64,000 bases of DNA, from the NCBI GenBank assembly GCA_000092065.1, contig CP000584.1; one strand, 5' to 3'. Origin of the DNA: Ostreococcus lucimarinus (lineage: Eukaryota). Below, in pieces: positions 2,565 to 53,582 of this stretch (its first letter is position 1; each line of letters opens with the position of its first letter). Position numbers and translations under genes: made by a program. Under the pieces are notes generated by a model. The model saw only the letters and a list, made by a program, of their open reading frames with translations. It ran no database searches and was not told the origin of the DNA.

Positions 2565-3017
2565 CCGCGCGACGACGTGTGACGCCAGAGCGCCGCGCGG
2601 CGTCGACGCGACGACGCGCGACGACGCGCGACGACGCGCGACGACGCGCGACGCGCGATGTCGCGCAAGCGACCGCGCGCGACGCGCGATACGAGCGACG
2701 ACGACGCGCATCTCTCGACGGTGGTTCAAAAATCATCTTTGCAAACGGCGCGCGCGACGACGCGAAACGGCGCGAAGCGGGCGCGACGAGACGCGACGGG
2801 ACGAAAAGTGCGCGCGCGGGGGAAGTCGTCGACGGCGCCGTTGGCGCTGGCGGTGACGCACGATCGCGTGCGGACGCTGGAGGTGCGATGATTAGACGAT
2901 TGGGATGGGCGTTCGAGGCGACGGCGGCGCGCGGGTGCCCGGTTTGACGCGAGAGAACGCGCGCGCGCGAAGAGACTGACGAAGGCGCGCTGGCGTCGAG
3001 ATCGCGGACAGGAGCTA

Positions 3018-7803: not shown

Positions 7804-9300
7804 TCAGAGGTGCATGGCTGAAGAAAAGTGAGGCGCCCAGCGCGATTGCTTGGCGGCGAGCTTAAGGGTGCGGAAAACTTCCGCATTGGCGGCCCAGAAA
7901 CTGACGGAATGTAACCCTAGACCGTTGGCTTTGGCGTAAGGCTTGACGACGTCTTCGCGAAACGCGCGAAGCTTGTGTCGAGGTACGCGCGGGCACAGGT
8001 GGTGCTCGGTTTGAAACTGTAAACCACCGTGGAACCAGTCGAGCCAGCGCGGGCAGTCGATGTCCAACGTCCCAGCGAGTTGCATGTTCACCCACTCGTC
8101 GTTTTCAGGTCGCCCTTCGAAGACGTCGCGCGAAAAATGCGAGAGGCAAATTTGCACGTGGATGACGCCGGCGACGGCGTGCGAGAGGAAGAAGAACGGC
8201 ACTTTGTGACCCACGGGTAACTGAGCGATGAGCGTGGTGAGCCACGTGGCGAACACACCAAGTGTTAAAAACTCCATCGCTCGGCTCCGCACGCGCTTCG
8301 CCTTGATCAAGAAGATCAACGTCTGCAAGTATAAGTTGATGCGAGCGACGGCCATAATTGGATAGAACGTGTAGTGCTGGAATCGAACGAGCGTCCTGGC
8401 GAGACGGTCGTACGTCATGCGTCTGCGGTGATACAGAGAGTACACCGAGCCAAAATATTTGTTGGAGACCGCGAACACGGGCATGTGCTGGATGTCGGGG
8501 TCGCATTCCAACGAGTTGCACGCGCAGTGGTGGACGTTGTGCGTCGCCATCCACCACGCGATGCCGACGCCGTTGAAGAGGTTTCCAACGCACCACCCGA
8601 TCATGGCGTCTTTTTTGCGATCATAAGTGATCGATGTGTGCCCAGCATCGTGGCCGATGAACATACTTTGCTGCCAAAACAAACCGAGCAAGACGGCGCC
8701 GAACATGTGCGTCTTGAAACCGGCGCCCGACGACAACACGCACGCCAACACGCCGCCGAAAAGCACGACCAATCTCGCGATGATGAAGGCGTAATCCGTG
8801 AGATCGCTCTTCAACAACTTCTCACTACCCTCCATCGCGTCCCTCATCCGACGAAACGCCTTTAAATGCGTCGGCGGCGCCGCGCTCTCGTCCACCAAGC
8901 GCCCGATTCGAAGCGTCTCCAAGCGCGCCAGCGCGCGCCGCTCCCCCCCGTGATACGCCATGAACGCGTCCGTCGCGTCTCTCCCCGCGTACTGCTCCAG
9001 AATCGTGCTCCCCCCCGGATGTTTCTCGACCCAAGACGTCGCGTCGTACACCCCATCGCCCACGACGAGCCAACAATCGCTCCCGACGTCGTGCGAGCGC
9101 ACGTCGGCGCGCGCGTACGTCGCCTCGCCTCGCCGCGTCTCCCCCCCGACGCCCGTCCCGACGTCCCGCGCCGCGCTCGCGTCGCCGCGATTCGCCCGTC
9201 GCGCGCCCTCGCCCTCCCGCGCCGTCGCGCGCGTCGCGCTCGCGTCCCCGCGTCGTCGCGCGCGCGCGCGACGCGAGAGGTCCACGCCGTCCCGCGGCAT
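7804..9300 (-). CDS. Front-end membrane desaturase (delta6/delta8 type) with an N-terminal cytochrome b5 domain.
   Basis: Cytochrome b5 motif HPGGSTILEQYAGRDATDAF. His boxes HDAGH, HNVHH and the front-end-specific QTEHHL (Gln replacing His). Confidence 0.8.
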   Translation of the reverse strand: MPRDGVDLSRRARARRRGDASATRATAREGEGARRANRGDASAARDVGTGVGGETRRGEATYARADVRSHDVGSDCWLVVGDGVYDATSWVEKHPGGSTILEQYAGRDATDAFMAYHGGERRALARLETLRIGRLVDESAAPPTHLKAFRRMRDAMEGSEKLLKSDLTDYAFIIARLVVLFGGVLACVLSSGAGFKTHMFGAVLLGLFWQQSMFIGHDAGHTSITYDRKKDAMIGWCVGNLFNGVGIAWWMATHNVHHCACNSLECDPDIQHMPVFAVSNKYFGSVYSLYHRRRMTYDRLARTLVRFQHYTFYPIMAVARINLYLQTLIFLIKAKRVRSRAMEFLTLGVFATWLTTLIAQLPVGHKVPFFFLSHAVAGVIHVQICLSHFSRDVFEGRPENDEWVNMQLAGTLDIDCPRWLDWFHGGLQFQTEHHLCPRVPRHKLRAFREDVVKPYAKANGLGLHSVSFWAANAEVFRTLKLAAKQSRWAPHFSSAMHL

Positions 9301-9771
9301 GTGCCTCGTCGACCCGTCTCGCGTCGCCGCGTCGCGCGTTTCCGACGCGAGACGGTTCGACGCGTTTCCGTCGCGCGTTTGCGAAGAATCCCGCGCCGTC
9401 GCCGCGTCGCGCTTTGTCGCGGTGCGACGCGCTTCCGGTCAACGCGCGTCGTCCGACCGCATCGTCGACGTCGCCCCCCTGGGGCCTCGCGACGAGATTT
9501 TTTCACCTTTTCTCGCCCCTGGGGCCCGCGAACAAAGGTGAAAAAATCTCGAGGCGCGCGCGCGAGTCCCGACTCGTCGACGGCGCGTGTAAACACTACT
9601 TATACCCCCCTGGTTTCGTTTCTTTCATTTACTTCACCGCATCTCTTAAATACGACGCATTCGAGCTTTTCGACGGCCACCCAGGACACGAAACCCCGTA
9701 CTCATACGAACACCACACCGCACGCGCGTGGACGCGCGCGCGCCGCACAATCAATCGCGCGCGCGCCCACC

Positions 9772-10074
9772 ATGCGCGCCTGCACGCCTCGCGCGTCGAG
9801 CGCGAACGCTCCAGGCGCGCAAAACGACGAACGACGCGCGACGCGCGCGAAGACGCACCGACGACCCGCGGTGGCGTCGCCGACGATCCTCGTTCAGGGC
9901 GGCAAGGATCCGGAGACGACCACGAATGGGCTGTCGAAGAAACGACGCGCGGTGATCGAGGACATGACGTCGTTCGCGGCGGGAGAACTGAGCGGACTGC
10001 TGAAGGACCCGGACACGAATTGGCAACCGCAAGATTGGCTGCCGAATCCGGAGTCGCCGGATTTCTTGGATCAG
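9772..10074 (+). CDS. Acyl-ACP (stearoyl-ACP) delta9 desaturase, exon 1: putative plastid transit peptide plus the conserved N-terminal segment.
   Basis: Frame of ORF 8866-10251 reads ...NWQPQDWLPNPESPDFLDQ, matching the plant SAD segment CWQPQDFLPDPASDGFDEQ. The exon ends at CAG|GTGCGAG. Confidence 0.6.
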
Positions 10075-10282
10075 GTGCGAGGGCGAGGGGGGGCGAGGGG
10101 ACGCGCGCGAGGGATGGTTTATCCGCGCGAGGGCGGTCGAGGGCGTTCGAACGAGACGCGACGCGGGACGCGCGAGGCGAGGTCGAGGCGCGCGCGAGAT
10201 GGGCGAGGGGGTGGGTGGAGGCGTGCGCGCGCGCGAAAACGCGGTGACTGACGAGCGCGCGAACGCGTCGCGATCGCGATAG
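10075..10282 (+). other. Spliceosomal intron (208 nt, phase 0) within the acyl-ACP desaturase gene.
   Basis: Donor GTGCGAG. Internal GGTGACTGACGAG branch-like motif. Acceptor GATAG. Splicing joins ...FLDQ to [23 protein letters not shown] as in plant SADs. Confidence 0.6.
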
Positions 10283-11161
10283 GTGGCGGAGATTCGTAAA
10301 CGCGCGGCGAACATCCCCGACGATCTCTTCGTCGTGCTCGTCGGCGATATGATCACCGAAGAGGCGTTGCCGACGTACATGAACATGTTGAACACGCTCG
10401 AAGGAACGAAGGATAACTCTGGCGCGGATGCTCACCCGTGGGCGGTGTGGACGCGCAAGTGGACGGCGGAGGAAAACCGTCACGGCGACCTCATGAACAA
10501 GTACTTGTGGATGACGGGTAAGGTGAACATGAAGCCGGTCGAGACCACGATCCAGAAGCTCATCGGCAGCGGCATGAACCCTAAGACGGACAACAACCCG
10601 TACCTCGGTTTCGTGTACACGTCTTTCCAAGAGCGCGCGACGAAAATTTCCCACGGGAACACGGCGCGCTTGGCCAAGGAGGCGGGCGATCCGGAGTTCG
10701 CGAAGATGTGCGGCATCATCGCCGCCGACGAAGGCCGCCACGAGATCGCGTACCAGCGCATCATCGATGAAGTATTGGCGCGCGATCCCGACGGTGCCGT
10801 CCTCGCGTACGCGGACATGATGGAGAAGCAAATCACCATGCCCGCGCACATGATGTGCGACGGCCAGCACAAGGCGCGAACCGGCCGCGACCTCTTCGTC
10901 GATTTCGCCGCCGTCGCGGAGCGCACGGGCGTGTACACCGGCCACGATTACGCCGATATCATGGATCACCTCAACAAGCGTTGGGACATCGCCAACATCA
11001 CGGGTTTGGGCGGCGAGGCGGCCGCCGCGCAAGAGTACTTGATGAAGCAACCCGCTCGCATCCGCAAGCTCGTCGCTTTCGCCGAGAAGAGGGCGGCGAA
11101 GAAGCCTCCGGCCAAGGAAACCTTCTCCTGGATTTACGATCGTCCCGTCGACATCAACTAA
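10283..11161 (+). CDS. Acyl-ACP delta9 desaturase, exon 2 (soluble di-iron desaturase core).
   Basis: [40 protein letters not shown] and [12 protein letters not shown] (the two EXXH di-iron motifs). Near-collinear with plant stearoyl-ACP desaturases. Confidence 0.9.
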
Positions 11162-12048: not shown

Positions 12049-12165
12049 CTGCGTCGCGCGCGTCCGTCGCGTCCGTCAGTCACCGCGCGCGCGTCGTTCG
12101 CGTCGCGCGTCGATCGCCGTCGTCTCGCGTCGCCGACGCTCGCGTCTCTCGCGTCTCTCGCGCAC
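12049..12165 (-). other. Spliceosomal intron (117 nt, phase 1) in the adenylate kinase gene.
   Basis: Minus-strand donor GTGCGCGAG. Internal GGTGACTGACGGACG. Acceptor CGCAG. It restores the P-loop GPPGAGKG|TQ. Confidence 0.65.
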
Positions 12166-18440: not shown

Positions 18441-20369
18441 CGATCGCGCGCGTCGCCGTCGTCGCGCGTCGCCGCACCGCGCGCGTCGGCGAAGCGCCAC
18501 CGCGACGTTCGACGCACCGACGCGCGCGCGTCGCGCGCGTCGGCGCCGGCGCCGCGCGACGACGATGAAGACGTCGACGCGTCGACGTTCGATGCGTCGA
18601 CGTTCGACGCGTCGCGTCGCGCGCTGCTCGCGCTCGCCGCGTCGACGACGACGGTGATGGTCGGTGCGGACGTCGCGCGCGCGTCGCCCGTGCGGGCGTC
18701 GATGCGGATGGCGGATCGAGGGCCGGTGGCGCGCGCGGCGCCGCGACCGCCGTGCGGGCCGGGATACGCGACGCTGCGCGACGCGGGAACGTATCGAGGA
18801 TTGGCCACGGTCGATCGCGAGGGACGCGGTCTGCGAGGGTTGTTGCCACCGAACGTCGTCGAGGACGACGTGGAGGTGCGCCGGGCGAGGGAAGCGCTCG
18901 GGCAGTGCGACGGCGCGTTCGAGTCGTACAAGCAGTTGGTGGCGCTGCAGACGACGGACGAGCGGACTTTTTATAAATTGTTGCGATCGGACACCGAGCG
19001 GTTGCTGCCGCTGTTGTACACGCCCACGGTCGGCGAGGCGTGTCTGAGATTCGGGACGCTGATACAACGACCGATGGGGGTGTGGGTAAGCTCGGACGAC
19101 GCGGGGAACGTGCGGGAATTGATGCGCAATTGGCCGCGCGACGACGTGAAAATCGCCGTGATCACGGATGGGGAGAGAATTTTAGGGCTCGGAGATCAAG
19201 GAGCGAACGGGATGGGAATTAGCGCGGGAAAGAGCATGGTGTACGCCGCATGTGGAGTGCCGCCGAGTGCGCTGTTGCCGATTCAGATTGACACCGGTAC
19301 AAACAACAAGACGTTGCTCGACGATCCGTTGTACATCGGGCTCAAACGCGAGCGCGACCGCTCCCAGGCCTACGACGCGCTCTTGGATGAAGTCGTCGTT
19401 TCGATTCGCGAGCGATTCGGTCCGAACACGATCATACACTGGGAAGACTTCGCGCCGAGGAACGCGTTCAGGGTATTGAAAAAGTATTACTCCGCGCCCG
19501 ATGTCGTGACGTACAATGACGACATCCAAGGCACCGCAGCGGTTACGGTGAGCGGGATATTGGCGTCGGTGCGAGCGCTAGAGAGAGGTGGTGACGTCAC
19601 TCAGCAGCGCGTATTGTTCTTTGGCGCTGGACAGGCGAATATCGGCGCCGCTGAACTCTTCGTCCTCGCGTTGACGAAGCGCGGCGTCGCGGAAGCCGAC
19701 GCTAGGAAACGGGTGTGGCTGTTTGATTCAAAAGGCCTCGTCGTGCGCTCGCGCGCGTCGCAGCTGAGTGATGACAAATTGCCTTTTGCACAAGACGCGA
19801 GGGAGGAAACTGACCTCGCATCAGCGATCGAAAGCATCAAGCCGACGGTGTTGGTCGGCGCCGCCGCGGTGCCCGGGGCGTTTACTCAAAAAGTCGTCAA
19901 GTCGATGAGCAAACTCAACGACCAACCGATCATTTTCGCGCTCTCCAACCCGACGTCCAAGGCTGAGTGCACCGCCGAGCAGGCGTACGCGTGGAGCAAC
20001 GGCCGAGCGATATTCGCGAGCGGCACCCGATTTCCGCCGGTGCGATTCTCGGCTGAAAAGACGTTCGCCCCCGGATTCGCCAACAACGCCTTCATCTTCC
20101 CACCCATCGCCCTCGCCACCATCGTCAGCGGCGCGAAACAAGTCACTCCAGACATGTTTCTCACCGCCGCCGAAGCCTTGGCCGAATCCGTCGACGCCAA
20201 CCTCTTCGCCGTCGGCGCCGTCTACCCGCCCGTCGATCGCATCGCCTCCTCCGCCGTCGCCGTCGCCGCGCGCGTCGCTCGCGCCGTCGACCCATCCATC
20301 GATCTCGACACCTGGCGCGCCCGCGTCCAGGACTACATCGCATCCAACGATTTATTCGATAGCCTGTAA
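18441..20369 (+). CDS. NAD(P)-dependent malic enzyme, probably plastid-targeted. The ORF opens at 18399, only 7 nt after the ABCG stop, so the true start is uncertain.
   Basis: LYTPTVGEACLRFGTLIQRPMGVWVS. NAD(P)-binding GAGQANIGAAEL. Full collinearity with malic enzymes. Ser/Arg/Ala-rich N-terminus. Confidence 0.85.
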   Translation, partial: RSRASPSSRVAAPRASAKRHRDVRRTDARASRASAPAPRDDDEDVDASTFDASTFDASRRALLALAASTTTVMVGADVARASPVRASMRMADRGPVARAAPRPPCGPGYATLRDAGTYRGLATVDREGRGLRGLLPPNVVEDDVEVRRAREALGQCDGAFESYKQLVALQTTDERTFYKLLRSDTERLLPLLYTPTVGEACLRFGTLIQRPMGVWVSSDDAGNVRELMRNWPRDDVKIAVITDGERILGLGDQGANGMGISAGKSMVYAACGVPPSALLPIQIDTGTNNKTLLDDPLYIGLKRERDRSQAYDALLDEVVVSIRERFGPNTIIHWEDFAPRNAFRVLKKYYSAPDVVTYNDDIQGTAAVTVSGILASVRALERGGDVTQQRVLFFGAGQANIGAAELFVLALTKRGVAEADARKRVWLFDSKGLVVRSRASQLSDDKLPFAQDAREETDLASAIESIKPTVLVGAAAVPGAFTQKVVKSMSKLNDQPIIFALSNPTSKAECTAEQAYAWSNGRAIFASGTRFPPVRFSAEKTFAPGFANNAFIFPPIALATIVSGAKQVTPDMFLTAAEALAESVDANLFAVGAVYPPVDRIASSAVAVAARVARAVDPSIDLDTWRARVQDYIASNDLFDSL

Positions 20370-26625: not shown

Positions 26626-26858
26626 CTGCGTCACCGTCGTTCGCACCACCGTCAGTCGTCGCGCGCGTCTTCGCGCGCGCTTTCGTCGCCGCGCGTCGTC
26701 CGAACGTCCCCGTTCGTCGTCGTCGTCTTATCGTTATCCGAAGCGCCATCCTCTCCGACCGCGCCTCGCCGCCGCGCGTCGCGCGCGCGCGTCCCGCGCG
26801 TCGTCGACGCGTCGCGAGCGCGTCGTCTCCCGGTCACCGCGCGCGCCGTCGCGCGCAC
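26626..26858 (-). other. Spliceosomal intron (233 nt, phase 0) in the CONSTANS-like gene.
   Basis: Minus-strand donor GAG|GTGCGCGCGAC. Internal CGACTGACGGTG. Acceptor GACGCAG|GCG. It fuses the two halves into a canonical B-box. Confidence 0.6.
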
Positions 26859-27320: not shown

Positions 27321-30300
27321 TTGGCGGCGATGCGCGCCCGGTTCGCGCGCGGCGCGTCGATGTCGGCGCTTCTGCTCGCGCTGTGCGCTTTGGCGTCGCT
27401 CTTAGGCGTCGCTCGGGGCGGTGGTTCGCCGTCGCCGTCCCCCGTGCACTGTTCGGCGAGGTGGATCGACGTCAACAAAGGGGGCTGCCCAAGCTGCGGA
27501 CCAGGCACGTATAGTAAGCGATACCAAATCGATCGCGATCCCGCGTACGATGGACGACGGTGTCCTCATGTCAACGGGCATGTGTCTTATGGACATGATT
27601 GCGAGGCACCGCCATGTCCGCCGCCGCCGCCATCGCCGCCGCCGCCGTCGCCACCGCCGCCGCCGCCGGGACAGTTTGTTCCCGTGCAGGTATCCATCAA
27701 CGATCCCGTGCCGAGAGTGTCAGATGCGTACGACTTTCACATTCTCACCTCACATCCTTCGTGCGATTCACAAAACGATTGTTTTGAGAGTCACATCGAG
27801 ACGGACGTGAGCGAGCATCACGTCGGACTCAGGTGCGACGTCACCGTGCAAAAGAAGGACCAAGTTTGTGCGACATTCGGTCGTCACATGCCTTGCAGGC
27901 TGTGGAATGACTTTTATCCAACAACTTTAACCCTCACGGATGAGCATGGTGACATCGTCGAAGGCGATTACGTCATTGAGTATGAATGCTACTTTGAACT
28001 CGCAAACGGCGAGCTCGTACCTGAGCCGACCAAGGTGAAGAAGACGCTGCACGAGTTCAGCGTATCCAAAGGGTGCGATTTGAAAATGAATTTGAATCGA
28101 GATTCCAAAGCAGAGCTCGCGGCGTATCTCCTCAGTGGCGCCGATGAATTCAATATCGCTGACTGCTCGAGTTTGAAGAGTATTTACGCCGCGAAGGAGG
28201 CCGTGTTCCGTATTTTCGATTCAAACCCGACAGATGGCCGACTCGATCACGAAGAAATCCTCATCGGTGTTGAGGCACACAGCATGGATACACAGATAGT
28301 GAATCATTGGAAGGACATCGTCGACGCTGAGGGTGGCGATGGACTGTTCCTCACACTTTCGAACTTCATGTCGGCAGACATCGCGCCTCGCGGTTGTCAA
28401 TCCGGCGCCGGTGACGTCGTGACGTTCACGGAGGCGACGTATCCAACGAGTGATCCTGGACGTGAAACGGGATCCAGGCAATGCGGAGAGATGGCGGGAT
28501 CTATGAAGACCACGTGGTCGTTTCCTCGATCAATGCAACTCGGCGATTGGTCGTGCGTATACATCGACGGGCTTTTGTACAGTCAATTGCTCGCCCAAAC
28601 GAGCCGAAACGCCGTATCGATGCAGAACAGCGTGACAGATATTCGCCCTGTCATTGGCTCTTTTCATGATGCAGAGCAATCTCTCGCTGCGCATTTCACG
28701 TTCGCAGGCGTGTCAAACGCAAGGCTGATTTCTTCAGAATCGCCGCGGGCGGATGGCCAAGAAGTGGTTCCAACCCTCTCCATCGATGATACGTATACAG
28801 GTAGTCTGCGAGTCTTCACGGCTTCTCAACACGGTAAACACGGGGCGTGCCTGAACAGCTGCCAAGGTTGTACCTTCCATTCGTACAAGTACATTGGGGA
28901 ACCGTTCAAGAATGATTTTGCCGTGTCGATGCAAATATTCATTCCTACACAGCTTTCGAGCAATTCTGGCTTTCGGAAGAAGTCGGAACCTCTCATGAGC
29001 TTCACTTCAGATGCATCTGGTAGTATGCAGCACAGCATCAAGTTACGATTGGGCACGGCACTCTCGAAGTTTTCACTTCAATTTATACATGAAAAAGTAA
29101 ACAGCGTGACGGGTCATCGAGATGAGCTATCAGAGCCCATTCCTCTGGGTGCGTTTGGACGCTGGACGTCAATTGGATTTTCTTTCCACCCAAAAGATGG
29201 TCTCACGTTGTACAGGTTCAGCGTTGAGGGAGGTAGGGTAACACATGAAATCAAGGTGCCGAGCAATAACGATGAGTGGAAATCGAGACTGCGAGACACG
29301 TTGCATTTGATGCACCGTCGTGAATTTTTCAAAGAGAACCGAATAGAATACGACGATCTTCGCGTGTACACTGGCCGAGTAAAGAACAACACATTCATAG
29401 ACGCGTATAAGTGCGACGCGTTGGGTGCTCAGTGTGCACCTCGAGCACACGCAACGCCAAACTCACGTCGCGTCGTATGTGTCATGCTGGATGTCCACGA
29501 CAGTAGTGGAGGAGACGCCCGTGCGCCGTATTCCTGCACCGGTGCCCTGTACTACGACGGCGGCGCCATTGAAGTGCGCGCGAAAATGGATCTCACTGGA
29601 GTCGCATTCGAATTCCGCGACACGGCTTGGCACGAATCATCTTTTGAAATCTTGCGACGCACGCACGATCCAAGTGGCGATAACGCGTTTGATACAGTCG
29701 TACTCGTTGACGGTGGTTTGAACGGCTGTGCGTCGATGTTTTCGTCGATTACGTATCTCGACCGAGAGGCTGGTCAGCAGCCCAACTCTCGCTGGCAGTA
29801 CAAGATCAAAACAAAGACGGACGATGTCGATGTAAGCTTTTTGTCGCTCACTACTCATTTTAAAACGCCTTGGATTGGTCAAATTGTGGGCGAAGTGATG
29901 GCCGGTAAGTCGGTTGTTCCTGTTGGCGAAGTCCGCATTTGCGCAGACTTCGTGAAGCCCAACGGTACTTTTCTGATGTATCGCAGTCACAATCACTCTA
30001 ATCTGGCTTTGCACATGCCCGTCGTTCACACATCTAATCTCACTATCTCAGCAGAACAACAGGCGCATCGAGCTACGGACGGCTTACACTTGAAGCCTGA
30101 CTCGATTCGTGTCGCAAGAGGACAGTATTTGCGCGTCAACCTCGACTATTGGAGCGCAATACAAGAGGTCGAAGTGTGCACCGCAACCGGAGAGAACAAT
30201 TTCAGAACTTTCGTGCGGGAGTTCGATCCGGGATACTCTGTGAATCACGGTCACGAGTGCAAATTACGAGAAACTAACGCAACCCAAACTTTCAGCGCAT

Positions 30301-33300
30301 CGCGCGTGACTTGCTTCTTCTTCACCTGTCGGGGCTCAAAGCTTACGACATTGCATGGTCAGTTCGTAACCGCAGCCGTCGAAGAAGGCGACGACGTGAG
30401 AATGACGCAAATTCGTGTTGTTGGTCAGCGTGGCAGATGCACGTTCACGGCGATAAGTGATGACGATGGGCGCTATGCAATCGATGTACTCGATCGCTCC
30501 GGGAACGTCCCCGTCAAGGCGAATATGCTCATCGGCGCGTATAAGGAAGAAGTTTTTGGTGAAGAATTCGAAGTTCCCCTCCTGGATACGAGCGATTCAG
30601 ATGGCGATGATGATTCGCTAAACGTTCCGACGCGAGTGTTACTCGTACTTCGTCGAAAGAACAGTTCGCTTGCGGCGCGTCTCGGGCATGAAGTCCCGGA
30701 TTACAGCAGCTCCTACTACGACGGCGAAACGCATCAGTATCTGGATCAACATGGATATAGTCCACCGTATGGCAGCTCCTACTACGACGGCGAAACGCAT
30801 CAGTATCCGGATCAACATGGATACAGTCCACCGTTCGGCAACACGCCATATGTGCACACTATTTACGATAACGCCTACGATTCAGGCGTTCCTGCCGCCA
30901 AAGTAGAGTTCCAAAGTTTGACGAATTTACGTCTGGAAAACACAACTCTTATGAAGAAAGATGGAGTTGCTGATGGTTGGAATGCAGGGGGGTCCTCGAA
31001 TCAGTCAATGTTTAATGTCACGGGTCGTTTTACTGGAATGGACGCGGTTGAGGGTATCAGGGTCGAATGCTCCTGCGATGATGGCGAATATGTCGTTGGT
31101 TTGAGCTACGCAGAGCACATAGCTAACTTTTCCAAAGCAGCGACCGAATTTGCCATTCACTGTCGTGGTAAAGGCTATGAGCCAGCCATCATTTCAGGTG
31201 GTCGCTCTTACGCAAATTCAAATAACTATCGGATGGCCATGGAGACGAGACCATCGCATCACATGACGGATCTATACGATGTGTACCAGTCAACTGACAT
31301 CACATCTTCGCCACCCATCTCCACGGCGAATGATTTCTCATATGCAGCAGCGCAGAGGCGACTACTGGCTCCAACGAGTTCGTACCCTGCAAGAAGCCCG
31401 ACGTCAAACGAGTATCCAACGACGAGCCCGACGCCAAGCAGTCAATTATTGAACTCTTATCCTCAGTCGTATGATGCGCAAACGAATGAGTATCCTCAGT
31501 CGTATGATGCGACGACGTCTACTTATTTTCCACCCTACCACATCGATGACTATCTCGATCGAGGCTATCGTTCAAACATGTGTATGAAGAAGACATTCAC
31601 CATTAAACTTACACGCAGTGGGCGTGTTTTGTTTTATGAAACGCAAGGCCATTGGCTGTACGATCATCCGGTGCAGCATGAAAATTTTCACCATACTCAG
31701 ACGTGGCAAACTGGTGGACAGTCGCCGCCGTACGGCTACACGGAGCAAACGCCACCGTACGGCTACGCGGAGCAAACGCCGCCGTACTCTGCGCGCGACA
31801 AGTCTTCCCTGGGCGCACATGCCGACGTTTCGCACACGGGCCAAGCTTTGCATGAGTACCATGAACCTGCTCAACTCATAGTACCGGTCGCGTACGCAGA
31901 AAGAGCACACAGCCCCTTGTTTGTGCGAATGGTGGTAATTTCACAAAATGTGACGCTGAGCGACGCCGACATACGTTGGACAGTGCCGACTCCCTCACCG
32001 CCGCCATCACCGCCACCATCACCACCGCCACCGTCACCACCGCCATCACCACCACCACCGCCGCCGCCGCCGTCCCCGCCGCCGCCGCCGCCTTCACCGC
32101 CGCCGCCGCCGCCGTCGCCACCGCCGTCGCCGCCGTCGCCGCCGCCGCCGCCCCCTGCGAAAGCTATCAGAGGTAACAGCGTCGATTGGACGGTGAAGAA
32201 GAACGTCGATAGTACCTCATCGGGGGGAGTTTTCTTGGTCGGATGGAATTCGAAGGGTGCTGCAGTGAGCGCGCGGGCGATCCATTCGTCCTCAAATGTC
32301 ACTCGAGGGATATCTGCAACTTTGGAACGTGGGCCTTATTCAATGGGTCACACTTGCGTAGGTCTGACGAGCTCTGCGGATCGCGAGACGGTTGATAGTT
32401 CTAACATCGATTTCGCCATGTGTTGCGAATGGGGTTATCTTGGTGTTTTTGAAAAGGGATCGCGCAAATGGCGTGCTAGTGGAAACTTGCAGGATAGTTG
32501 TTCACAAACGGACACGCTACAAATCGTCGTGAACGATGGGGATGGCGCGATCGAGTACTTCAAGAATCGGCGTCGCGTGTATACCAGTCAACGGACACCT
32601 CAGTATCCGCTTCACGCAGACGCTGAAGTCTATTTCGGAAGACTGGGTGAAGTTGTTTGGATTGAACGAATTCCATCACCGCCTCCTTCTCCTCCTCCAC
32701 CGCCTTCACCGCCGCCGCCACCATCACCGCCCCCGCCGCCCCCGCCTTCACCGCCGCCATTGCATCAGTTTACATCCGCGGATGTAGATCCACGCATCAA
32801 CACGGCCGCGGCTATTCCGCACATCACACGCGAGGAGTTCGAGGATTTCATCGAAAATATAACAGGCTTCCCTAATTTGGGACACGCCATCGTGATGGAT
32901 GAAATCTGGCAGTATATCGACGACGACGGGGACGGTGTTTTGAGTGAGATTGAGTTCCAGCACGCGTCTTACAAAATGCACACTCACGAGCTGTACGTTG
33001 ATCCCATCATCGTCTACCCCAGCCGCTCGATAAAACATCGCTACGGCTTCAAGGTTTCCAAATCAGTCAGGAGTGATTCTAGTGCCTGCGTGGGTGACGC
33101 CGTATCTTACGACGGTCCCTCTGCGTCGCTTGGTTCGTGCGAATTGACTTCGGAGAAGGAGCCTGTAGAGATTACATTATGGGGAAATGGTTTTGCTGGC
33201 ACACCGTCGACGACCACTATTTACAGCTTGGGAGCTTCCAAGAATGGAGACACTACGTACATCGCGAGCGCGCGCGTTTCTGTCGGCACCTGGTTCACGT

Positions 33301-39371: not shown

Positions 39372-39858
39372 TTCCACCGCGCGAATTGACCGTCGGCGAC
39401 AAAGTCGAGAAACCGACGAACCTACGTCGCCGTCACTTTTTGACAATTTTGATTTACTCCTTTTCTCTATGTTCGAGTCGCCGCCGTTCGACCTCGCGTC
39501 TCGCCTCCTTCGCGCGCCGTCGCCCCGGGAGTCACCGCCGTCGTTTGGCGAAATCTCGCGCCGTCGAGCGTTTTGAGCGTTTTTCGCCGCGCGCGACCGC
39601 CTCGACCGCCGCGCCCTCGGCCGCGCGAGCGCGCGACGCGCGGCGAGGGCGACATGGCGGCGACGCGCGAGGACGACGGCGACGTTGAGGCGCGGCTGCG
39701 CGCGCGCTGGGCGGCGGACGGACGCAAAAACCCCGACGTCGAGGACGCGCTGCGGCGCGTGGGGATCGCGAAGGCGCGCGAGCGACGGTGCGTCCGCGCC
39801 GCGCGGGCGACGACGACGACGGCGACGAGCGATGCGCGAACGACACTAACGCTCGTTT

Positions 39859-41631
39859 ATGCGACGCAGGGCGATGATGGCGCGAGCAAAGAATGTGGAG
39901 TTGCGCTCGAGCGAGGACGTCGGCGCGGCGAAGACGTACGAGGAGGCGGCGCCGCGCGCGGACACGCCGCCCAAGCGCGAACGGAGCGTGGAGGCGGCGA
40001 GTGAGTCGGCGGCGGACGAAGAGGCAACGCGTAAAGAAGCGATGCTCATCGAAACGTTCGATTCATCGCGGGCACCGAGGGGCCGAGGCGAAGGCGTCGC
40101 GGGGTCTCGTCGAGCGACGCCGAACGCGTCGATTGACGAACGCGCGCCAGGCGCGGGATTGCGGCTGAAAGGGAACGAAGCGATGAAGTGCGGCGATTTT
40201 GCACTCGCACAGGCGTTATACGGCGAAGCGCTGGATGCCGCGCGAGAAGAGGATGCGCATCTTCGAGCGGTGGTGTTTTGTAATCGCGCGTTGGCGTTTC
40301 ACAAGATGAACGAATACGATGCCGCGTTGTGCGACGCCAAGTGCGCGGAAGAGCTCGCGCCGACTTGGAGTAAACCCAAGCATAGACTCGCTGAGGCGTG
40401 TTTACGCCTGGGGTCGTACACTCTCGCCGTCACATACGCGCGTCTGGGCGAAAAACTCCAGTTCGAGGAGGGCGATTTCAGCAAATCGTTTCGCGACGTG
40501 CTGGACGAAATCGCGATTTGCGCCGCGGAGGACGGGTCCGTCGCCGGGTTTGACGGCAAATTAATTTACGTCCGAAGCGCGGGCGAAGACGCATGGCTCG
40601 GACGAGAGGCTCCTTTGAACGCGGCTTTCGATGAGCTAGAAGGCGAAGTCGCGGATCCTATGTTTGGTGGCGGCTCGGCGAAGGACGCGAATTCGATGAA
40701 ACCCGTGCACGCGAGGTCACTTCCGGAGGCAATTTCTAAAGCAAACGACGGTGACCGCATACTCTTACTGCGTGGCGTTCACAACGGGCTCGGAACCGTG
40801 GTTGAGATTGACAAGCGCGTGCTCATACGAGGCGAAGGCGCGCTTCGAGACACGACGTGCGATTGCCGAAACAACGCGGCGTTATTTCGCATCAAGCGTC
40901 CGTGCGTGATTCAAAATCTCGACATCGATTTCACAGGGTTTAGCGAGGCGATTCGCATCAAGGGAGATTCGCGCGTGAACGCGTTGATCGAGAATTGCGT
41001 GATCAGATCGAGCGGCGGCGACTGCGTTGCGGTCGGTGGCAAATCTGCGCCGACATTTCGCAACTGCTCAATCACGGGAAAATTGAGCGGCGTTCGCTCG
41101 TACGCCCAAGCAACGCCGACGTTTATCGATTGCAACATCACGCGCTCGGGATTACAGGGCGTGCTCGCCATGAAGGAATCACGAGTCATCATGCACGGCT
41201 GCGCGGTGCAAAACAACGAAGAAGACGGCGTCGTCGTCATGGAACAGTCCAACGTGGTGATGAGCAAATGCGTCGTACAAGACAACAAAGGCCCGGGCGT
41301 GGACGTTTCGAATACGGCAAAGGTTGTCGTGAACGATTGCGACATCGACGCCAATGTCGGCGGACTGTGGCTGTGGGACCATTCGTGCGCGCACGTCGCC
41401 GCGTCCAGCGTGAACGGGGGCAAATCTCACGCCGTGCTCGTCGACGTCAACGCTCGCGCGAATTGTCGCAGAACCAAAATCATCGGCGTCGTGCACGCGT
41501 CGGAGACGGGCGCGCGGGGCGTTCGGGGCGAAGGCACCGTCGTCGAGACGTTGGAAACGCCCACGTCGCTTCCCCAAGAAGCCAAAGGCGCGTTCAAGCA
41601 CGACCCGTGCGGCTTTTCACGAAAACAATAA
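39859..41631 (+). CDS. Protein with N-terminal TPR repeats and a C-terminal right-handed parallel beta-helix (PbH1) repeat region.
   Basis: TPR segment GLRLKGNEAMKCGDFALAQALYGEALDAAREED...CNRALAFHKMNEYDAALCDAKCAEELAP. Repeated beta-helix rungs NCVIRSSGGDCVAV / NCSITGKLSGV / DCNITRSGLQGV / GCAVQNNEEDGVVV / KCVVQDNKGPGVDV / DCDIDANVGGLWL. Confidence 0.7.
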   Translation: MRRRAMMARAKNVELRSSEDVGAAKTYEEAAPRADTPPKRERSVEAASESAADEEATRKEAMLIETFDSSRAPRGRGEGVAGSRRATPNASIDERAPGAGLRLKGNEAMKCGDFALAQALYGEALDAAREEDAHLRAVVFCNRALAFHKMNEYDAALCDAKCAEELAPTWSKPKHRLAEACLRLGSYTLAVTYARLGEKLQFEEGDFSKSFRDVLDEIAICAAEDGSVAGFDGKLIYVRSAGEDAWLGREAPLNAAFDELEGEVADPMFGGGSAKDANSMKPVHARSLPEAISKANDGDRILLLRGVHNGLGTVVEIDKRVLIRGEGALRDTTCDCRNNAALFRIKRPCVIQNLDIDFTGFSEAIRIKGDSRVNALIENCVIRSSGGDCVAVGGKSAPTFRNCSITGKLSGVRSYAQATPTFIDCNITRSGLQGVLAMKESRVIMHGCAVQNNEEDGVVVMEQSNVVMSKCVVQDNKGPGVDVSNTAKVVVNDCDIDANVGGLWLWDHSCAHVAASSVNGGKSHAVLVDVNARANCRRTKIIGVVHASETGARGVRGEGTVVETLETPTSLPQEAKGAFKHDPCGFSRKQ

Positions 41632-47096: not shown

Positions 47097-47406
47097 TCGC
47101 GCGCGCGAGTGCGCCGACGCCGACGCGACGCGCGCCGAAACGCCTCGGCGAAAACGCACGGACGCGACCGCACAGCGCGACCGATGGCGACGGACGGCGC
47201 GCGCGGCGGCGGCGCGACGGCGACGGACGCGAAAAAAAACGATGGACGCACGATTTGGTCGTACAGGGACGAGTGCCAGACGTGGCGCAACTACGACGCG
47301 TCGAAGGGGTTGCGATACACGCGAGAATCGATCGATGCGGTGCGTTCGAAGACGTCGCGCGCGCGATGGTCGGAACGACGCGACTGACGGCGCGCGAACG
47401 ACGCAG

Positions 47407-51899: not shown

Positions 51900-53237
51900 T
51901 CAGCTTTGGTGCAATTGCGCGAAGTAATCCTTGTACAGACCTTCGCGAATGGACATGAAGCCGGCGATGTATCGCTTGTACTGCTGCAAGCGCGCGAGCT
52001 CCTTCTTCGTGAGCAACGTATGCAATCGCCACACGACGTGCTTGATGTATTGGATCACGAAATAAGTTATCAAACTCGCACTCAAGGAGTACGCACCGCC
52101 GTGCTTGATACCAGACCAACGAATTTGCCCTTCTCGCGGGAGCAAGCCCTCGAGTTGCGGGACGCGCGGAAGAAGCGTTCTCAAGCCGTGGGCGATGACG
52201 GGCGTCGCACAAATCTCCAAAGCCGCGACGTAAATAGACAAGAACAAGAACACCCACCCGAGGAGCATCAGCGCGATCCCACGGAGCGATCGTTTCAAGT
52301 TATCCTTCTTGTTCAATTCGTTCGTTTTAATAACTTGATCGATGCGATCTTCGATGCGCGTGCAATCCTCCTTCATCGTCGTCAGGTTTTTCTGCACCGT
52401 CAAACGAATCGCTCTATCGATGTCTTCACACACCTCCTCGATAGCGTTCGGAATTGGGACGGTCAAATCGTCTCGTGGCAGATAAATCGTCGGTAATTTG
52501 AACGCGTGCGAATTCTTAATTCGCGAGCTCAAGTTTTGCGTAATCTGAATCAAAACCCGCTGTCGATCGTGCTCCTTCTCTACCTGGTCCGCCTTCGACA
52601 TGTAATACGCCAGCTTGTCCGCGTGGTTCTCATTCAACGCCTCGATGACCTTCATCGTGCGCTTACACAGCGCCTGACCGATCGGGTCAAAGAACACCAA
52701 AATTAAGTCAACGTGGTCGGCGAGCGACTCGATGACTTTCGCCACGTCAAACGGGTAGCACATATCGCCATCCACCAACCCCGGCGAGTCCACGATGTCG
52801 ACGCAACTAAAGTTTTTCTCCTTACTCGTCGAAATCTCGGTAAAAATGTTCGCATTCAAACCCTCGACGTTCTGCACGCCTTCCAAATAATCGTAAAACG
52901 CGAACGTCGCGTCTCCCTTCAGCGTCTCCCGCTTCCTTCCGCTCGTCACGAACGTGAACCCACGCGTCTCGATCGCAACCCCCGTGGTTTGCACGCTCTC
53001 TCCGATGTACCAATTTATGAACGAGCTCTTCCCCGCGGAGTGATTCCCGATGATCATCGCGCTCACCTTCTTCCTCGGCTTGAAGCACTTCACCCTGAGC
53101 AGCGCGTCGTTCGCGATGTCGAGCAACCCGATCGACGTTCGCGACGTCGACGACCCAGCCCCCGGGCTCGGTCCTCGTTCGTACAATTCGTGTATGCTCT
53201 TCAGGATGCGCTCCTGCGCGTCGTCGCGGCGTCGCAT
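51900..53237 (-). CDS. EHD/sarcalumenin-like dynamin-family GTPase with no recognisable EH domain. Start taken at MRRRDDAQERILKSIHELY.
   Basis: P-loop IGNHSAGKSSFINWYIG. ...IVDSPGLVDGD...LILVFFDPIGQA...YYMSKADQV is collinear with the EHD G-domain (GQYSTGKTTFI...IIDTPGILSG...ILLLFDAHKLD...VVLNKADQI). Confidence 0.7.
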   Translation of the reverse strand: MRRRDDAQERILKSIHELYERGPSPGAGSSTSRTSIGLLDIANDALLRVKCFKPRKKVSAMIIGNHSAGKSSFINWYIGESVQTTGVAIETRGFTFVTSGRKRETLKGDATFAFYDYLEGVQNVEGLNANIFTEISTSKEKNFSCVDIVDSPGLVDGDMCYPFDVAKVIESLADHVDLILVFFDPIGQALCKRTMKVIEALNENHADKLAYYMSKADQVEKEHDRQRVLIQITQNLSSRIKNSHAFKLPTIYLPRDDLTVPIPNAIEEVCEDIDRAIRLTVQKNLTTMKEDCTRIEDRIDQVIKTNELNKKDNLKRSLRGIALMLLGWVFLFLSIYVAALEICATPVIAHGLRTLLPRVPQLEGLLPREGQIRWSGIKHGGAYSLSASLITYFVIQYIKHVVWRLHTLLTKKELARLQQYKRYIAGFMSIREGLYKDYFAQLHQS

Positions 53238-53582
53238 CGTCGCCGTCGTCGTCGTCAGTCGTCTCGGTCGCGTCGCTCGCGCGTCGTCGCGTCGCTTTTC
53301 GCGTCGTTTTCGCCCCACGCACGTTCGGCGACATCGCCAGCGCGCCGGCATCGTTCGAGGTGTTCACTCGCTTCGCTTTGCCCGCGCTCATGCTCGCCGC
53401 GCGCGCGTCCGCGCGTCGTCGTCTGCGGTCGCGCGCGTCGCGTCGTCCCAGCCGTTGGTCGGCGGGACAAGATGATGCGCGACGCGCGCGTCCGCACAGC
53501 GCATCGCGCGAGCTCGCGAGCGCGACGCGGGCGAGAGAAACGCGCGCGGAGGACGTCGCGGCGCGCGCGCGCGCGAGCCGCG

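What the first reader, a model, noticed from the sequence alone, without database searches (positions are those of the whole stretch)
10075..10282. Short intron splits the acyl-ACP desaturase; same GTGCG donor and TGACTGACG branch-like signature as two other introns in the window
Exon 1 (9772-10074) is hidden inside a long Arg-rich ORF (8866-10251) and is only recognisable through the conserved NWQPQDWLPNPESPDFLDQ segment. The three introns I could define (10075-10282 +, 12049-12165 -, 26626-26858 -) all start GTGCG(A/C)G. All contain GGTGACTGACG or CGACTGACGG 25-35 nt upstream of a (C/T)AG. All are GC-rich and 117-233 nt long. This looks like a lineage-specific splice-signal consensus, and it is useful for finding further first exons missed by ORF-based calling.
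Basis: partly seen in the sequence, partly recalled or inferred. Interest (0 to 1): 0.55.

Follow-up and report, generated by a model that had tools for sequence, protein, structure and literature searches.

The report
Known Ostreococcus intron splice signals
The 208-base gap in the acyl-ACP desaturase gene is a real spliceosomal intron, and the GTGCG...GACTGACG signature it shares with other introns nearby is the splice-signal consensus already published for this alga (Ostreococcus lucimarinus), so the finding is correct but ordinary.

Summary
The window comes from Ostreococcus lucimarinus CCE9901, not Micromonas. Three of my spliced gene models match its GenBank proteins exactly.

Intron 10075-10282 is removed exactly as proposed. 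An environmental transcript contig carries the exact exon1-exon2 junction, and the public model XP_001417298.1 uses the same junction.

The adenylate kinase intron is confirmed by RNA-derived contigs. The B-box/CCT intron is confirmed by the annotated model and by an intact B-box domain.

The signature consists of a GTGCGNN donor, a GACTGACG branch box 19-41 nt upstream of a mostly CGCAG acceptor, high GC, very little T and no polypyrimidine tract. It is real. GACTGACG is expected about 0.02 times in these introns and is seen in every one. Donor and branch box are conserved in orthologous desaturase and adenylate kinase introns across the Ostreococcus lineages sampled, while intron interiors diverge.

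This consensus was published for this species by Irimia and Roy (2008), and GYGCGY donors are described for Mamiellales. These introns are not introner elements.

One small addition: the signature found three more introns. Two reveal first exons missing from public protein models, for a dynamin-like GTPase and for TERT. The public desaturase model also lacks 64 N-terminal residues.

The parts
9772..10074 (+). Acyl-ACP desaturase exon 1 (101 codons: transit peptide plus the start of the desaturase domain)
   Evidence: It lies in frame inside the spurious ORF 8866-10251. Transcript contig L001 starts 1 nt before this ATG and encodes the same 393-aa architecture. The public model XP_001417298.1 starts only at M65, position 9964.
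10075..10282 (+). Desaturase intron: 208 nt, phase 0. Donor GTGCGAG at 10075-10081, branch box GGTGACTGACG at 10243-10253 (branch A at 10251, 31 nt from the 3' end), acceptor GATAG.
   Evidence: The exact 40-mer exon junction is present in L001. The public model has the same junction. The intron sits at the same site in all Ostreococcus lineages sampled.
10283..11161 (+). Desaturase exon 2 (292 codons plus stop)
   Evidence: ORF list. Pfam FA_desaturase_2 spans the junction.
12049..12165 (-). Adenylate kinase intron: 117 nt, phase 1, inside the P-loop codons GAGKG|T. Donor GTGCGCG, branch box GGTGACTGACG at 12074-12084 (branch A at 12076, 27 nt from the 3' end), acceptor CGCAG.
   Evidence: The spliced 239-aa product equals XP_001417553.1 exactly. 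RNA-derived contig L087 holds the exact junction 40-mer. The intron is conserved in 15 distinct orthologous sequences.
26626..26858 (-). B-box/CCT (CONSTANS-like) gene intron: 233 nt, phase 0. Donor GTGCGCG, branch box CGACTGACGG (branch A at 26652, 26 nt from the 3' end), acceptor CGCAG.
   Evidence: The spliced 422-aa product equals XP_001417557.1 exactly. The zf-B_box match (residues 30-71) spans the junction at residue 47/48. No transcript contig was found.
47340..47406 (+). Fourth signature intron, in a ubiquitin-like-domain gene: 67 nt, phase 0. Donor GTGCGTT, branch box CGACTGACG (19 nt from the 3' end), acceptor CGCAG.
   Evidence: It was found by the motif scan. The spliced 185-aa product equals XP_001417308.1 exactly.
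53214..53322 (-). Fifth signature intron, in a dynamin-N/sarcalumenin-like GTPase gene: 109 nt, phase 0. Donor GTGCGTG, branch box CGACTGACG (41 nt from the 3' end), acceptor CGCAG. Exon 1 is 53323-53391.
   Evidence: Found. The public model XP_001417561.1 starts MRRRDDAQ at an ATG inside this intron. Exon 1, MSAGKAKRVNTSNDAGALAMSPN, aligns with the N-termini of transcript-derived homologues, for example MAQKDKKRVNTKSSVEDMTMSPNERILK.
2883..3011 (+). Sixth signature intron, in the telomerase reverse transcriptase gene: 129 nt, phase 0. Donor GTGCGAT, branch box GACTGACG at 2974-2981 (32 nt from the 3' end), acceptor GACAG. Exon 1 is 2658-2882.
   Evidence: O. tauri has the same exon-1 end (..LALVVQHARVRTLE), a GTGCGCG donor, a GTGACTGACG box and an acceptor in front of ELVEDMC. 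The spliced ORF is continuous at 1236 aa. GenBank ACH81296.1 starts at the M at 3027.
39788..39869 (+). Candidate seventh intron in front of a TPR-repeat gene: 82 nt, phase 2. Donor GTGCGTC, branch box ACACTAACG (20 nt from the 3' end), acceptor CGCAG. Unverified.
   Evidence: It passed the strict scan. The spliced model is not in the protein collection, and only the unspliced 585-aa ORF call is on record.

Best explanation
Segment 10075-10282 is an ordinary U2-type GT-AG spliceosomal intron. It is phase 0 and interrupts the plastid acyl-ACP (stearoyl-ACP) desaturase gene of Ostreococcus lucimarinus CCE9901 after codon 101.

It belongs to the strong-signal intron class that fills most of this intron-poor genome. 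That class has:
- a nearly fixed 5' splice site, GTGCG(T/C/A)(G/T);
- a nearly fixed branch box, (G)ACTGAC(G), about 20-40 nt upstream of the acceptor;
- an acceptor that is usually CGCAG;
- a GC-rich, T-poor body with no polypyrimidine tract;
- a position near the 5' end of the gene.

Shown here: removal of the intron from mRNA at exactly these borders; restoration of complete protein domains; and purifying selection on the donor and branch box while the rest of the intron drifts.

Inferred, not shown: that the A in ACTGAC is the lariat branch point. This motif is close to the standard CURAY/UACUAAC branch consensus that pairs with U2 snRNA. It is also inferred that the 3' splice site is chosen as a YAG at a permitted distance downstream.

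According to a preprint, the U1 snRNA of Mamiellales keeps the standard ACUUAC. On that basis the unusual +3G/+4C donor is not explained by a compensating U1 change.
For: Identity of the genome: the spliced adenylate kinase, CCT and Ubl proteins are exact matches to XP_001417553.1, XP_001417557.1 and XP_001417308.1 of O. lucimarinus CCE9901.

Splicing of the desaturase intron:
- JGI contig L001 (1307 nt) has a continuous 393-aa ORF and the exact 40-nt exon junction. Its exon 2 is 99.9% identical to the window.
- Genomic metagenome contigs of the same population keep the intron.
- The public model has the same FLDQ|VAEIRK junction.

Splicing of the adenylate kinase intron: L087 holds the exact junction.

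Domain integrity of the spliced products: FA_desaturase_2 covers profile positions 2-324 of 325, ADK covers 1-147 of 151, and zf-B_box covers 5-40 of 42. Each match spans its junction.

Conservation:
- 13 representative orthologous desaturase introns (167-293 nt) share the site. Donors are GTGCG[ACT]G, with GTACGCG or GTGAGGG in two. The box GACTGAC (ACTGAG in one lineage) lies 27-31 nt from the 3' end, and the interiors cannot be aligned.
- 15 adenylate kinase orthologues show the same pattern.

Six of the eight GACTGACG occurrences in the window are branch boxes of sense-strand introns.

Literature:
- In O. lucimarinus, 87% of EST-confirmed introns outside chromosome 2 contain ACTGAC and 66.5% contain GACTGACG. 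The donor consensus is GTGCGTG, the branch-to-AG distance is about 20-35 nt, and the preferred acceptor is CGCAG (PMC2483917).
- Mamiellales prefer GYGCGY donors and keep a standard U1 (bioRxiv 10.1101/2022.06.08.495308).
Against: - No branch point has been mapped experimentally here.
- The B-box/CCT, Ubl, GTPase and TERT introns have no transcript contig in the collections searched.
- I infer that L001 comes from RNA only because it lacks the intron and its exon 2 is nearly identical to the window. I could not look up the sample type.
- Exon 1 of L001 is only 94.8% identical to the window.
- The chromosome was not identified, so calling this intron class 'non-chromosome-2' rests on local GC content and the signals themselves.
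Confidence: 0.95

Rival explanations
1. The introns are copies of a mobile, repetitive intron family: introner elements, as in Micromonas pusilla or M. commoda. These spread recently and carry their own splice signals.
For: The introns share identical 5' and branch motifs, are GC-rich and lie in a Mamiellales genome. Introner families are known in the sister genus Micromonas (PMC4540971, PMC4815162).
Against: - Apart from the splice signals, the introns match each other only through short low-complexity GACGCG-type words. Those words occur all over the window on both strands. The longest specific match is the 14-nt branch box itself.
- No terminal inverted repeats were found beyond (CG)n self-complementarity.
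- The desaturase and adenylate kinase introns occupy the same site in every Ostreococcus lineage sampled, including O. tauri. Their interiors and lengths have diverged, so they are old, not recent insertions.
- The published ABC-type introner elements of M. commoda are a single highly conserved motif of about 64 nt. The D-type elements of M. pusilla show high identity genome-wide. Neither is seen here.
Confidence: 0.02
2. There is no intron. The long Arg-rich ORF 8866-10251 or a read-through product is the real coding sequence, and the motif co-occurrence is a chance product of GC-rich low-complexity DNA.
For: GTGCGMG and ACTGAC are each at chance frequency in the window. GC-rich genomes produce long spurious ORFs in all frames.
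Against: - The transcript contig lacks exactly these 208 nt.
- Exon 1 and exon 2 are in different frames (9772 versus 10283), so read-through cannot make the desaturase.
- The 5' part of the 8866-10251 ORF overlaps the cyt-b5 desaturase gene on the other strand.
- Pfam domains are complete only after splicing.
- The motif placement has a Poisson probability of about 8e-7.
- Donor and branch box are conserved across species while neighbouring intron sequence is not.
Confidence: 0.01
3. The conserved motifs serve a second function besides splicing. For example, the intron could host a transcriptional enhancer or a structured RNA, and that function is what keeps it in place.
For: A GTTTATCC block about 45-50 nt into the desaturase intron is shared by O. 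lucimarinus, O. tauri and two or three other lineages. A 15-nt block, ACGGGTGCCCGGTTT, is conserved in the TERT intron between O. lucimarinus and O. tauri. All six introns are first introns close to the start codon.
Against: - The GTTTATCC block is absent from about half of the lineages.
- No Rfam family matches anywhere in the window.
- The GTGCG and GACTGACG motifs themselves sit exactly where splice signals must be, and they are shared by unrelated genes.
Confidence: 0.1

Closest known systems
Strong-signal introns of the standard (non-outlier) genome of Ostreococcus lucimarinus, described by Irimia and Roy 2008, PLoS Genet 4:e1000148 (PMC2483917)
   Same: Same species. The donor consensus is the same (GTGCGTG published; GTGCG + A/C/T + G/T here). 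The extended branch box GACTGACG is the same. The branch-to-AG distance falls in the same range (published broad peak of 20-35 nt; here 19-41 nt). The CGCAG acceptor preference is the same (4 of 6). The body is GC-rich.
   Different: Nothing essential. The desaturase intron ends GATAG and the TERT intron ends GACAG rather than CGCAG. One intron has a 41-nt branch-to-AG distance, which is outside the published peak.
GYGCGY donor preference of Mamiellales with an unmodified U1 snRNA (bioRxiv 10.1101/2022.06.08.495308)
   Same: All seven donors in the window, and almost all orthologous donors in other Ostreococcus lineages, fit GTGCGN.
   Different: That work reports the donor logo and the U1 sequence genome-wide. 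No snRNA gene lies in this window, so the U1 statement could not be re-tested here.
Micromonas introner elements (D-IE1/2 in M. pusilla CCMP1545, ABC-IE in M. commoda RCC299; PMC4540971, PMC4815162)
   Same: They are spliceosomal introns in a Mamiellales genome with recognisable branch points and canonical GT/AG ends.
   Different: Introner elements are defined by high sequence identity among hundreds of copies and by clade-specific presence. The introns here share only the splice signals. They are present at the same sites across the genus, and they are in Ostreococcus.
Small AT-rich introns of the low-GC region of the big outlier chromosome (chromosome 2 in Ostreococcus; PMC3491373, PMC2367439)
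   Same: Same genome and presumably the same spliceosome.
   Different: Those introns are 40-65 nt, AT-rich relative to their exons and lack detectable conserved splice or branch motifs. The introns here are 67-233 nt, 68-75% GC and have near-invariant motifs.
Intron-poor yeasts with fixed GTATGT and TACTAAC signals (Saccharomyces and relatives)
   Same: Low intron density, introns biased towards the 5' end of genes, and near-invariant donor and branch sequences.
   Different: The consensus sequences differ (GTGCG versus GTATG; ACTGAC versus ACTAAC). The lineage is unrelated, so this is convergence.

Membership tests
U2-type GT-AG spliceosomal intron | GT at the 5' end and AG at the 3' end | tested here: met
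   All six introns and the candidate begin GT and end AG.
U2-type GT-AG spliceosomal intron | Precisely removed from mature RNA | tested here: met
   Exact junction 40-mers are present in contig L001 for the desaturase and in L087 for adenylate kinase. This was not available for the other four introns.
U2-type GT-AG spliceosomal intron | Removal restores an uninterrupted, homologous coding sequence | tested here: met
   Searches show continuous ORFs. One search shows Pfam domains spanning the junctions. One search shows exact matches to annotated proteins. Searches show homology of the newly found first exons.
U2-type GT-AG spliceosomal intron | Branch-point adenosine in a CURAY-like motif 18-40 nt upstream of the acceptor | tested here: inconclusive
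   The ACTGAC motif lies 19-41 nt upstream in all six introns and is conserved in orthologues. Use of that A as the lariat branch was not measured.
O. lucimarinus strong-signal intron class (Irimia and Roy 2008) | Donor GTGCGTG-like | tested here: met
   The donors are GTGCGAG, GTGCGCG, GTGCGCG, GTGCGTT, GTGCGTG and GTGCGAT. The published consensus is quoted.
O. lucimarinus strong-signal intron class (Irimia and Roy 2008) | ACTGAC or extended GACTGACG branch box | tested here: met
   Six of six introns contain GACTGACG.
O. lucimarinus strong-signal intron class (Irimia and Roy 2008) | Branch-to-AG distance of about 20-35 nt and a CGCAG acceptor preference | tested here: met
   The distances are 31, 27, 26, 19, 41 and 32 nt. 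CGCAG occurs in 4 of 6. The published values are quoted.
O. lucimarinus strong-signal intron class (Irimia and Roy 2008) | Located outside the low-GC, intron-dense part of chromosome 2 | tested here: inconclusive
   The flanking DNA is 62-66% GC and the record is 930,724 bp long, but I could not establish the chromosome number. The only low-GC stretch in the window is one giant ORF.
Micromonas-type introner elements | High sequence identity among many intron copies | tested here: not met
   Only low-complexity words and the branch box are shared among the introns and with the rest of the window. This covers the window only, not the whole genome.
Micromonas-type introner elements | Clade-specific presence/absence, indicating recent insertion | tested here: not met
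   The desaturase and adenylate kinase introns are at the same site in all Ostreococcus lineages sampled, including O. tauri, and their interiors have diverged.
U12-type (minor) intron | A (G/A)TATCCTT donor and a TCCTTAAC branch site 10-15 nt from the acceptor | tested here: not met
   The donors are GTGCG and the branch box is GACTGACG, 19-41 nt from the acceptor.

The most novel reading that the evidence does not exclude
Signature-guided re-annotation could recover many short first exons that are missing from the public O. lucimarinus gene set. The search would look for GTGCG ... GACTGACG, then 19-41 nt, then YAG, just upstream of or overlapping annotated start codons.

In this one 64-kb window, two of six signature introns are absent from public protein models: the dynamin-like GTPase XP_001417561.1 and TERT ACH81296.1. 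A third model, the desaturase, is N-terminally truncated by 64 residues and so lacks its transit peptide.

If that rate holds genome-wide, a sizeable share of targeting peptides and N-termini in this reference picoalga are wrong. A weaker side reading is that the conserved internal blocks (GTTTATCC in the desaturase intron, ACGGGTGCCCGGTTT in the TERT intron) are intron-borne regulatory elements.
Probability: 0.45. Interest if true: 0.25.

Novelty: already known. Interest (0 to 1): 0.15.

Why it matters
The finding has little value as a discovery. The consensus was published for this species in 2008, and the desaturase intron is already in GenBank.

Its practical value lies in annotation quality. 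The signals are so stereotyped that they work as a reliable detector of short 5' exons. Both ORF-based gene calling on metagenomes and the original genome annotation miss such exons.

Here the signals restore the chloroplast transit peptide region of the desaturase and the conserved N-terminus of a dynamin-like GTPase, and they add an upstream exon to TERT. This matters to anyone using Ostreococcus protein N-termini for predicting protein targeting, or using metagenomic gene calls from picoeukaryotes.

Tried and rejected
1. A permissive scan combined any GT/GC donor, any CTRAY-like branch motif and open frames. It gave 337 candidates, nearly all inside continuous coding sequence. Only after I required an interrupted frame and an upstream ATG did it shrink to the true introns plus two candidates.
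2. I first rejected a TERT intron (2883-2972) because GenBank ACH81296.1 starts at 3027. Comparison with O. tauri then showed a real intron, 2883-3011, that uses the GACTGACG box.
3. Inverted repeats flank the branch box in introns 1 and 2. They are (CG)n self-complementarity and are not conserved in O. tauri, so I do not regard them as functional.
4. A search for transcript evidence for the CCT, Ubl and GTPase introns found nothing. The exact proteins are not on record as gene positions. The homologue searches returned only prokaryote-style ORF calls that start inside the introns.
5. The Rfam scan of the whole window found no snRNA or other RNA family. Complementarity between U1/U2 and the signals therefore could not be examined directly.
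7. The chromosome number of the 930,724-bp record could not be determined.
8. The GACTGACG occurrences at 3787 and 62092 were checked and lie in coding sequence.

Full report
**What is in the sequence**

The ORF list shows a 461-codon Arg-rich open frame on the + strand from 8866 to 10251. Its last part reads MRACTPRASS...NWQPQDWLPNPESPDFLDQ and then runs on as VRGRGGARG. A separate 292-codon ORF (10283-11161), in a different frame, begins [14 protein letters not shown].

Joining 9772-10074 to 10283-11161 gives a 393-aa protein with no stop. Its Pfam FA_desaturase_2 match runs from profile position 2 to 324 of 325, straight across the junction at residue 101/102.

The removed segment, 10075-10282, is 208 nt long and 75% GC, with 51% G and only 9% T. 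It starts GTGCGAG, carries GGTGACTGACG with the putative branch A 31 nt from the end, and ends GATAG.

- 12165-12049 (minus strand) is 117 nt and phase 1, with donor GTGCGCG, box GGTGACTGACG and acceptor CGCAG. It splits the P-loop of an adenylate kinase (GAGKG|TQ).
- 26858-26626 (minus strand) is 233 nt and phase 0, with donor GTGCGCG, box CGACTGACGG and acceptor CGCAG. It splits the B-box of a CONSTANS-like B-box/CCT protein.

**Which organism**

The spliced adenylate kinase, B-box/CCT and a third protein are letter-for-letter identical to XP_001417553.1, XP_001417557.1 and XP_001417308.1 of Ostreococcus lucimarinus CCE9901, on a record of 930,724 bp. The gene order desaturase, adenylate kinase, GCP, ABC transporter is shared with O. 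tauri. The window is therefore Ostreococcus, not Micromonas.

**Is the intron really spliced**

A 1307-nt JGI environmental contig (L001) encodes the 393-aa architecture in one continuous ORF. It contains the exact 40-mer made of the last 20 nt of exon 1 and the first 20 nt of exon 2, and its exon 2 part is 99.9% identical to the window.

Genomic metagenome contigs of the same population (about 99% identical) keep the intron. L001 is therefore best read as mRNA-derived, although I could not look up the sample type.

The public O. lucimarinus model XP_001417298.1 (329 aa) equals residues 65-393 of my model and contains the same FLDQ|VAEIRK junction. The intron is thus already annotated, and only the first 64 residues (the presumed transit peptide) are missing from that model.

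For adenylate kinase, two short Logan contigs encode the exact 239-aa protein without interruption, and L087 holds the exact junction 40-mer.

For the B-box/CCT gene I found no transcript. The evidence there is the identical annotated model and a B-box match above the Pfam cut-off that spans the junction.

**Is the shared signature more than chance**

Taken alone, the short motifs are unremarkable in this GC-rich DNA:
- GTGCGMG occurs 94 times against 86 expected.
- ACTGAC occurs 18 times against 21 expected.
- GACTGACG occurs 8 times against 3.95 expected, and 4 of 100 shuffles reach 8.

The placement is what counts. The three introns make up 558 nt of sense strand, where 0.017 GACTGACG are expected and 3 are seen (Poisson about 8e-7). 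Only 3.9% of GT dinucleotides in the window are followed by GCG, yet every intron starts that way.

I followed up the other five GACTGACG sites, and three are branch boxes of further introns.

- **47340-47406 (+):** 67 nt, GTGCGTT...CGACTGACG...CGCAG. Its spliced product is an exact match to XP_001417308.1.
- **53322-53214 (-):** 109 nt, GTGCGTG...CGACTGACG...CGCAG, in a dynamin-N/sarcalumenin-like GTPase gene. The public model XP_001417561.1 begins MRRRDDAQ at an ATG inside this intron. My 23-residue exon 1, MSAGKAKRVNTSNDAGALAMSPN, aligns with the N-termini of transcript-derived homologues from other green algae (MAQKDKKRVNTKSSVEDMTMSPNERILK and similar).
- **2883-3011 (+):** 129 nt, GTGCGAT...GACTGACG...GACAG, in the telomerase reverse transcriptase gene. 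O. tauri has the same exon-1 end (LALVVQHARVRTLE against LALAVTHDRVRTLE), a GTGCGCG donor, a GTGACTGACG box and an acceptor before ELVEDMC.

The remaining two GACTGACG sites are inside coding sequence. A seventh candidate, 39788-39869 (GTGCGTC...ACACTAACG...CGCAG), remains unverified.

**Evolutionary test**

A scan of metagenome contigs with the desaturase returned 79 loci. Every locus with more than 90% identity in exon 2 has an intron at residue 101/102. These loci represent several Ostreococcus lineages, O. tauri among them.

In 13 representative sequences the intron is 167-293 nt long and its interior cannot be aligned between lineages. The donor is GTGCG[ACT]G, with GTACGCG and GTGAGGG in one lineage each. 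A GACTGAC box (ACTGAG in one lineage) lies 27-31 nt from the 3' end.

The neighbouring adenylate kinase intron behaves the same way in 15 distinct sequences. Donors are GTGCG[CA][GAT], with GTACGTC in O. tauri. The box is GACTGACG or GACTAACG, 20-32 nt from the end, and lengths range from 106 to 227 nt.

This is the pattern expected for splice signals under purifying selection in old introns.

Loci resembling Bathycoccus or Micromonas (about 78% identity) are uninterrupted at residue 101/102 and have an intron near residue 72/73 instead. A more distant green alga (L083) has an intron at 101/102 with a GC donor.

**Not introner elements**

Compared with each other and with the rest of the window, the introns share only low-complexity GACGCG-type words. 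Those words occur on both strands everywhere. The longest specific match between two introns is the 14-nt branch box. There are no terminal inverted repeats beyond (CG)n self-complementarity.

Taken with the genus-wide conservation of position, this fails both defining features of Micromonas introner elements as described in PMC4540971 and PMC4815162.

**Mechanism**

These are standard U2-type introns of the strong-signal kind found in intron-poor genomes.

Shown: exact removal from RNA (two introns), restoration of complete domains, and selective conservation of donor and branch box.

Inferred from established spliceosome biology: the A of ACTGAC is the branch nucleophile. The motif fits the CURAY/UACUAAC family that pairs with U2 snRNA.

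There is no polypyrimidine tract. Only 0-3 T lie between the box and the acceptor in introns 1-5. In those five introns no AG lies between the branch region and the acceptor, apart from one AG 3-4 nt after the branch A in intron 1. The TERT intron skips a GAG at +21.

A preprint reports that Mamiellales prefer GYGCGY donors while their U1 snRNA keeps the standard ACUUAC, so the odd +3G/+4C is not compensated in U1. I could not re-test this because the window holds no snRNA gene.

**Comparison with what is known**

Irimia and Roy (2008, PMC2483917) analysed EST-confirmed O. lucimarinus introns. Outside chromosome 2 they report:
- 87% contain ACTGAC and 66.5% contain GACTGACG;
- the 5' splice site has the 'atypical consensus GTGCGTG' (4.8 bits);
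- the branch-to-AG distance peaks broadly at about 20-35 bp;
- the acceptor prefers CGCAG.

The contrasting class is the 40-65-nt AT-rich introns without motifs in the low-GC part of chromosome 2. It does not appear in this window, whose only low-GC stretch is one giant ORF.

**Verdict**

The small new points are annotation corrections:
- a longer N-terminus for the desaturase;
- a missed first exon for the dynamin-like GTPase;
- an upstream exon for TERT that is absent from the 1156-aa GenBank protein ACH81296.1.

Noticed in passing
window 27321-39371 (+): A single 4016-codon ORF accounts for the low-GC stretch of the window (about 51% GC against 62-66% around it). No Pfam domain reaches its cut-off, and only weak EF-hand and Big_13 hits appear.
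   Followed up: partly
window 9494-9510 and 9536-9552: A perfect 17-nt inverted repeat, GAGATTTTTTCACCTTT / AAAGGTGAAAAAATCTC, lies in the 472-nt divergent promoter between the cyt-b5 front-end desaturase (7804-9300, minus strand) and the acyl-ACP desaturase. It contains AAAAAATCT, which from memory resembles a CCA1-binding or evening-element-type site. It is not conserved upstream of the desaturase in other Ostreococcus lineages.
   Followed up: partly
window 10117-10126 (inside the desaturase intron): A GGTTTATCC block about 45-50 nt into the intron is shared with O. tauri and L023. It appears as GCTTATCC in L019 and inverted, as GGATAA, in L026 and L027. It is absent in four or five other lineages. 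It could be an intron-borne regulatory element or just residual homology.
   Followed up: partly
window 9772-10074 compared with loci L003-L008 and L001: The transit-peptide exon of the desaturase is only 87-96% identical in protein among conspecific environmental contigs whose exon 2 is more than 99% identical. The N-terminus is hypervariable in natural populations.
   Followed up: no
window 53214-53391 (-): The public protein XP_001417561.1 (445 aa) starts at an ATG inside a predicted intron. The conserved 23-residue first exon (53323-53391) is missing from it.
   Followed up: yes
window 2658-3011 (+); L002 about 660-1006: TERT has an upstream 75-codon exon and a 129-nt signature intron, both conserved in O. 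tauri. A 15-nt block, ACGGGTGCCCGGTTT, inside the intron is also conserved between the two species. GenBank ACH81296.1 begins only at the M at 3027.
   Followed up: yes
window 39654-39869 (+): A candidate 44-codon first exon and an 82-nt intron (GTGCGTC...ACACTAACG, 20 nt, CGCAG) lie in front of a TPR-repeat gene. Only the unspliced 585-aa ORF call is on record.
   Followed up: partly
loci L044, L067 and L083 compared with window 10075-10282: Relatives resembling Bathycoccus or Micromonas lack the intron at desaturase residue 101/102 and have one near residue 72/73 instead. A more distant green alga (L083) has an intron at 101/102 with a GC donor (GCACGCG). This points to intron gain, loss or sliding within 29 codons.
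   Followed up: partly
window 18540-18622 (+): ARAGORN calls an 83-nt tRNA-Phe(GAA) here. Rfam reports no tRNA at its gathering threshold, and the site lies in a long open frame. It is probably a false positive.
   Followed up: partly
window 10080-10099 (+): The first 25 nt of the desaturase intron contain four G-runs (GGGCGAGGGGGGGCGAGGGG), which fit a G-quadruplex motif on the sense strand. The runs are not conserved in closely related contigs such as L007.
   Followed up: no
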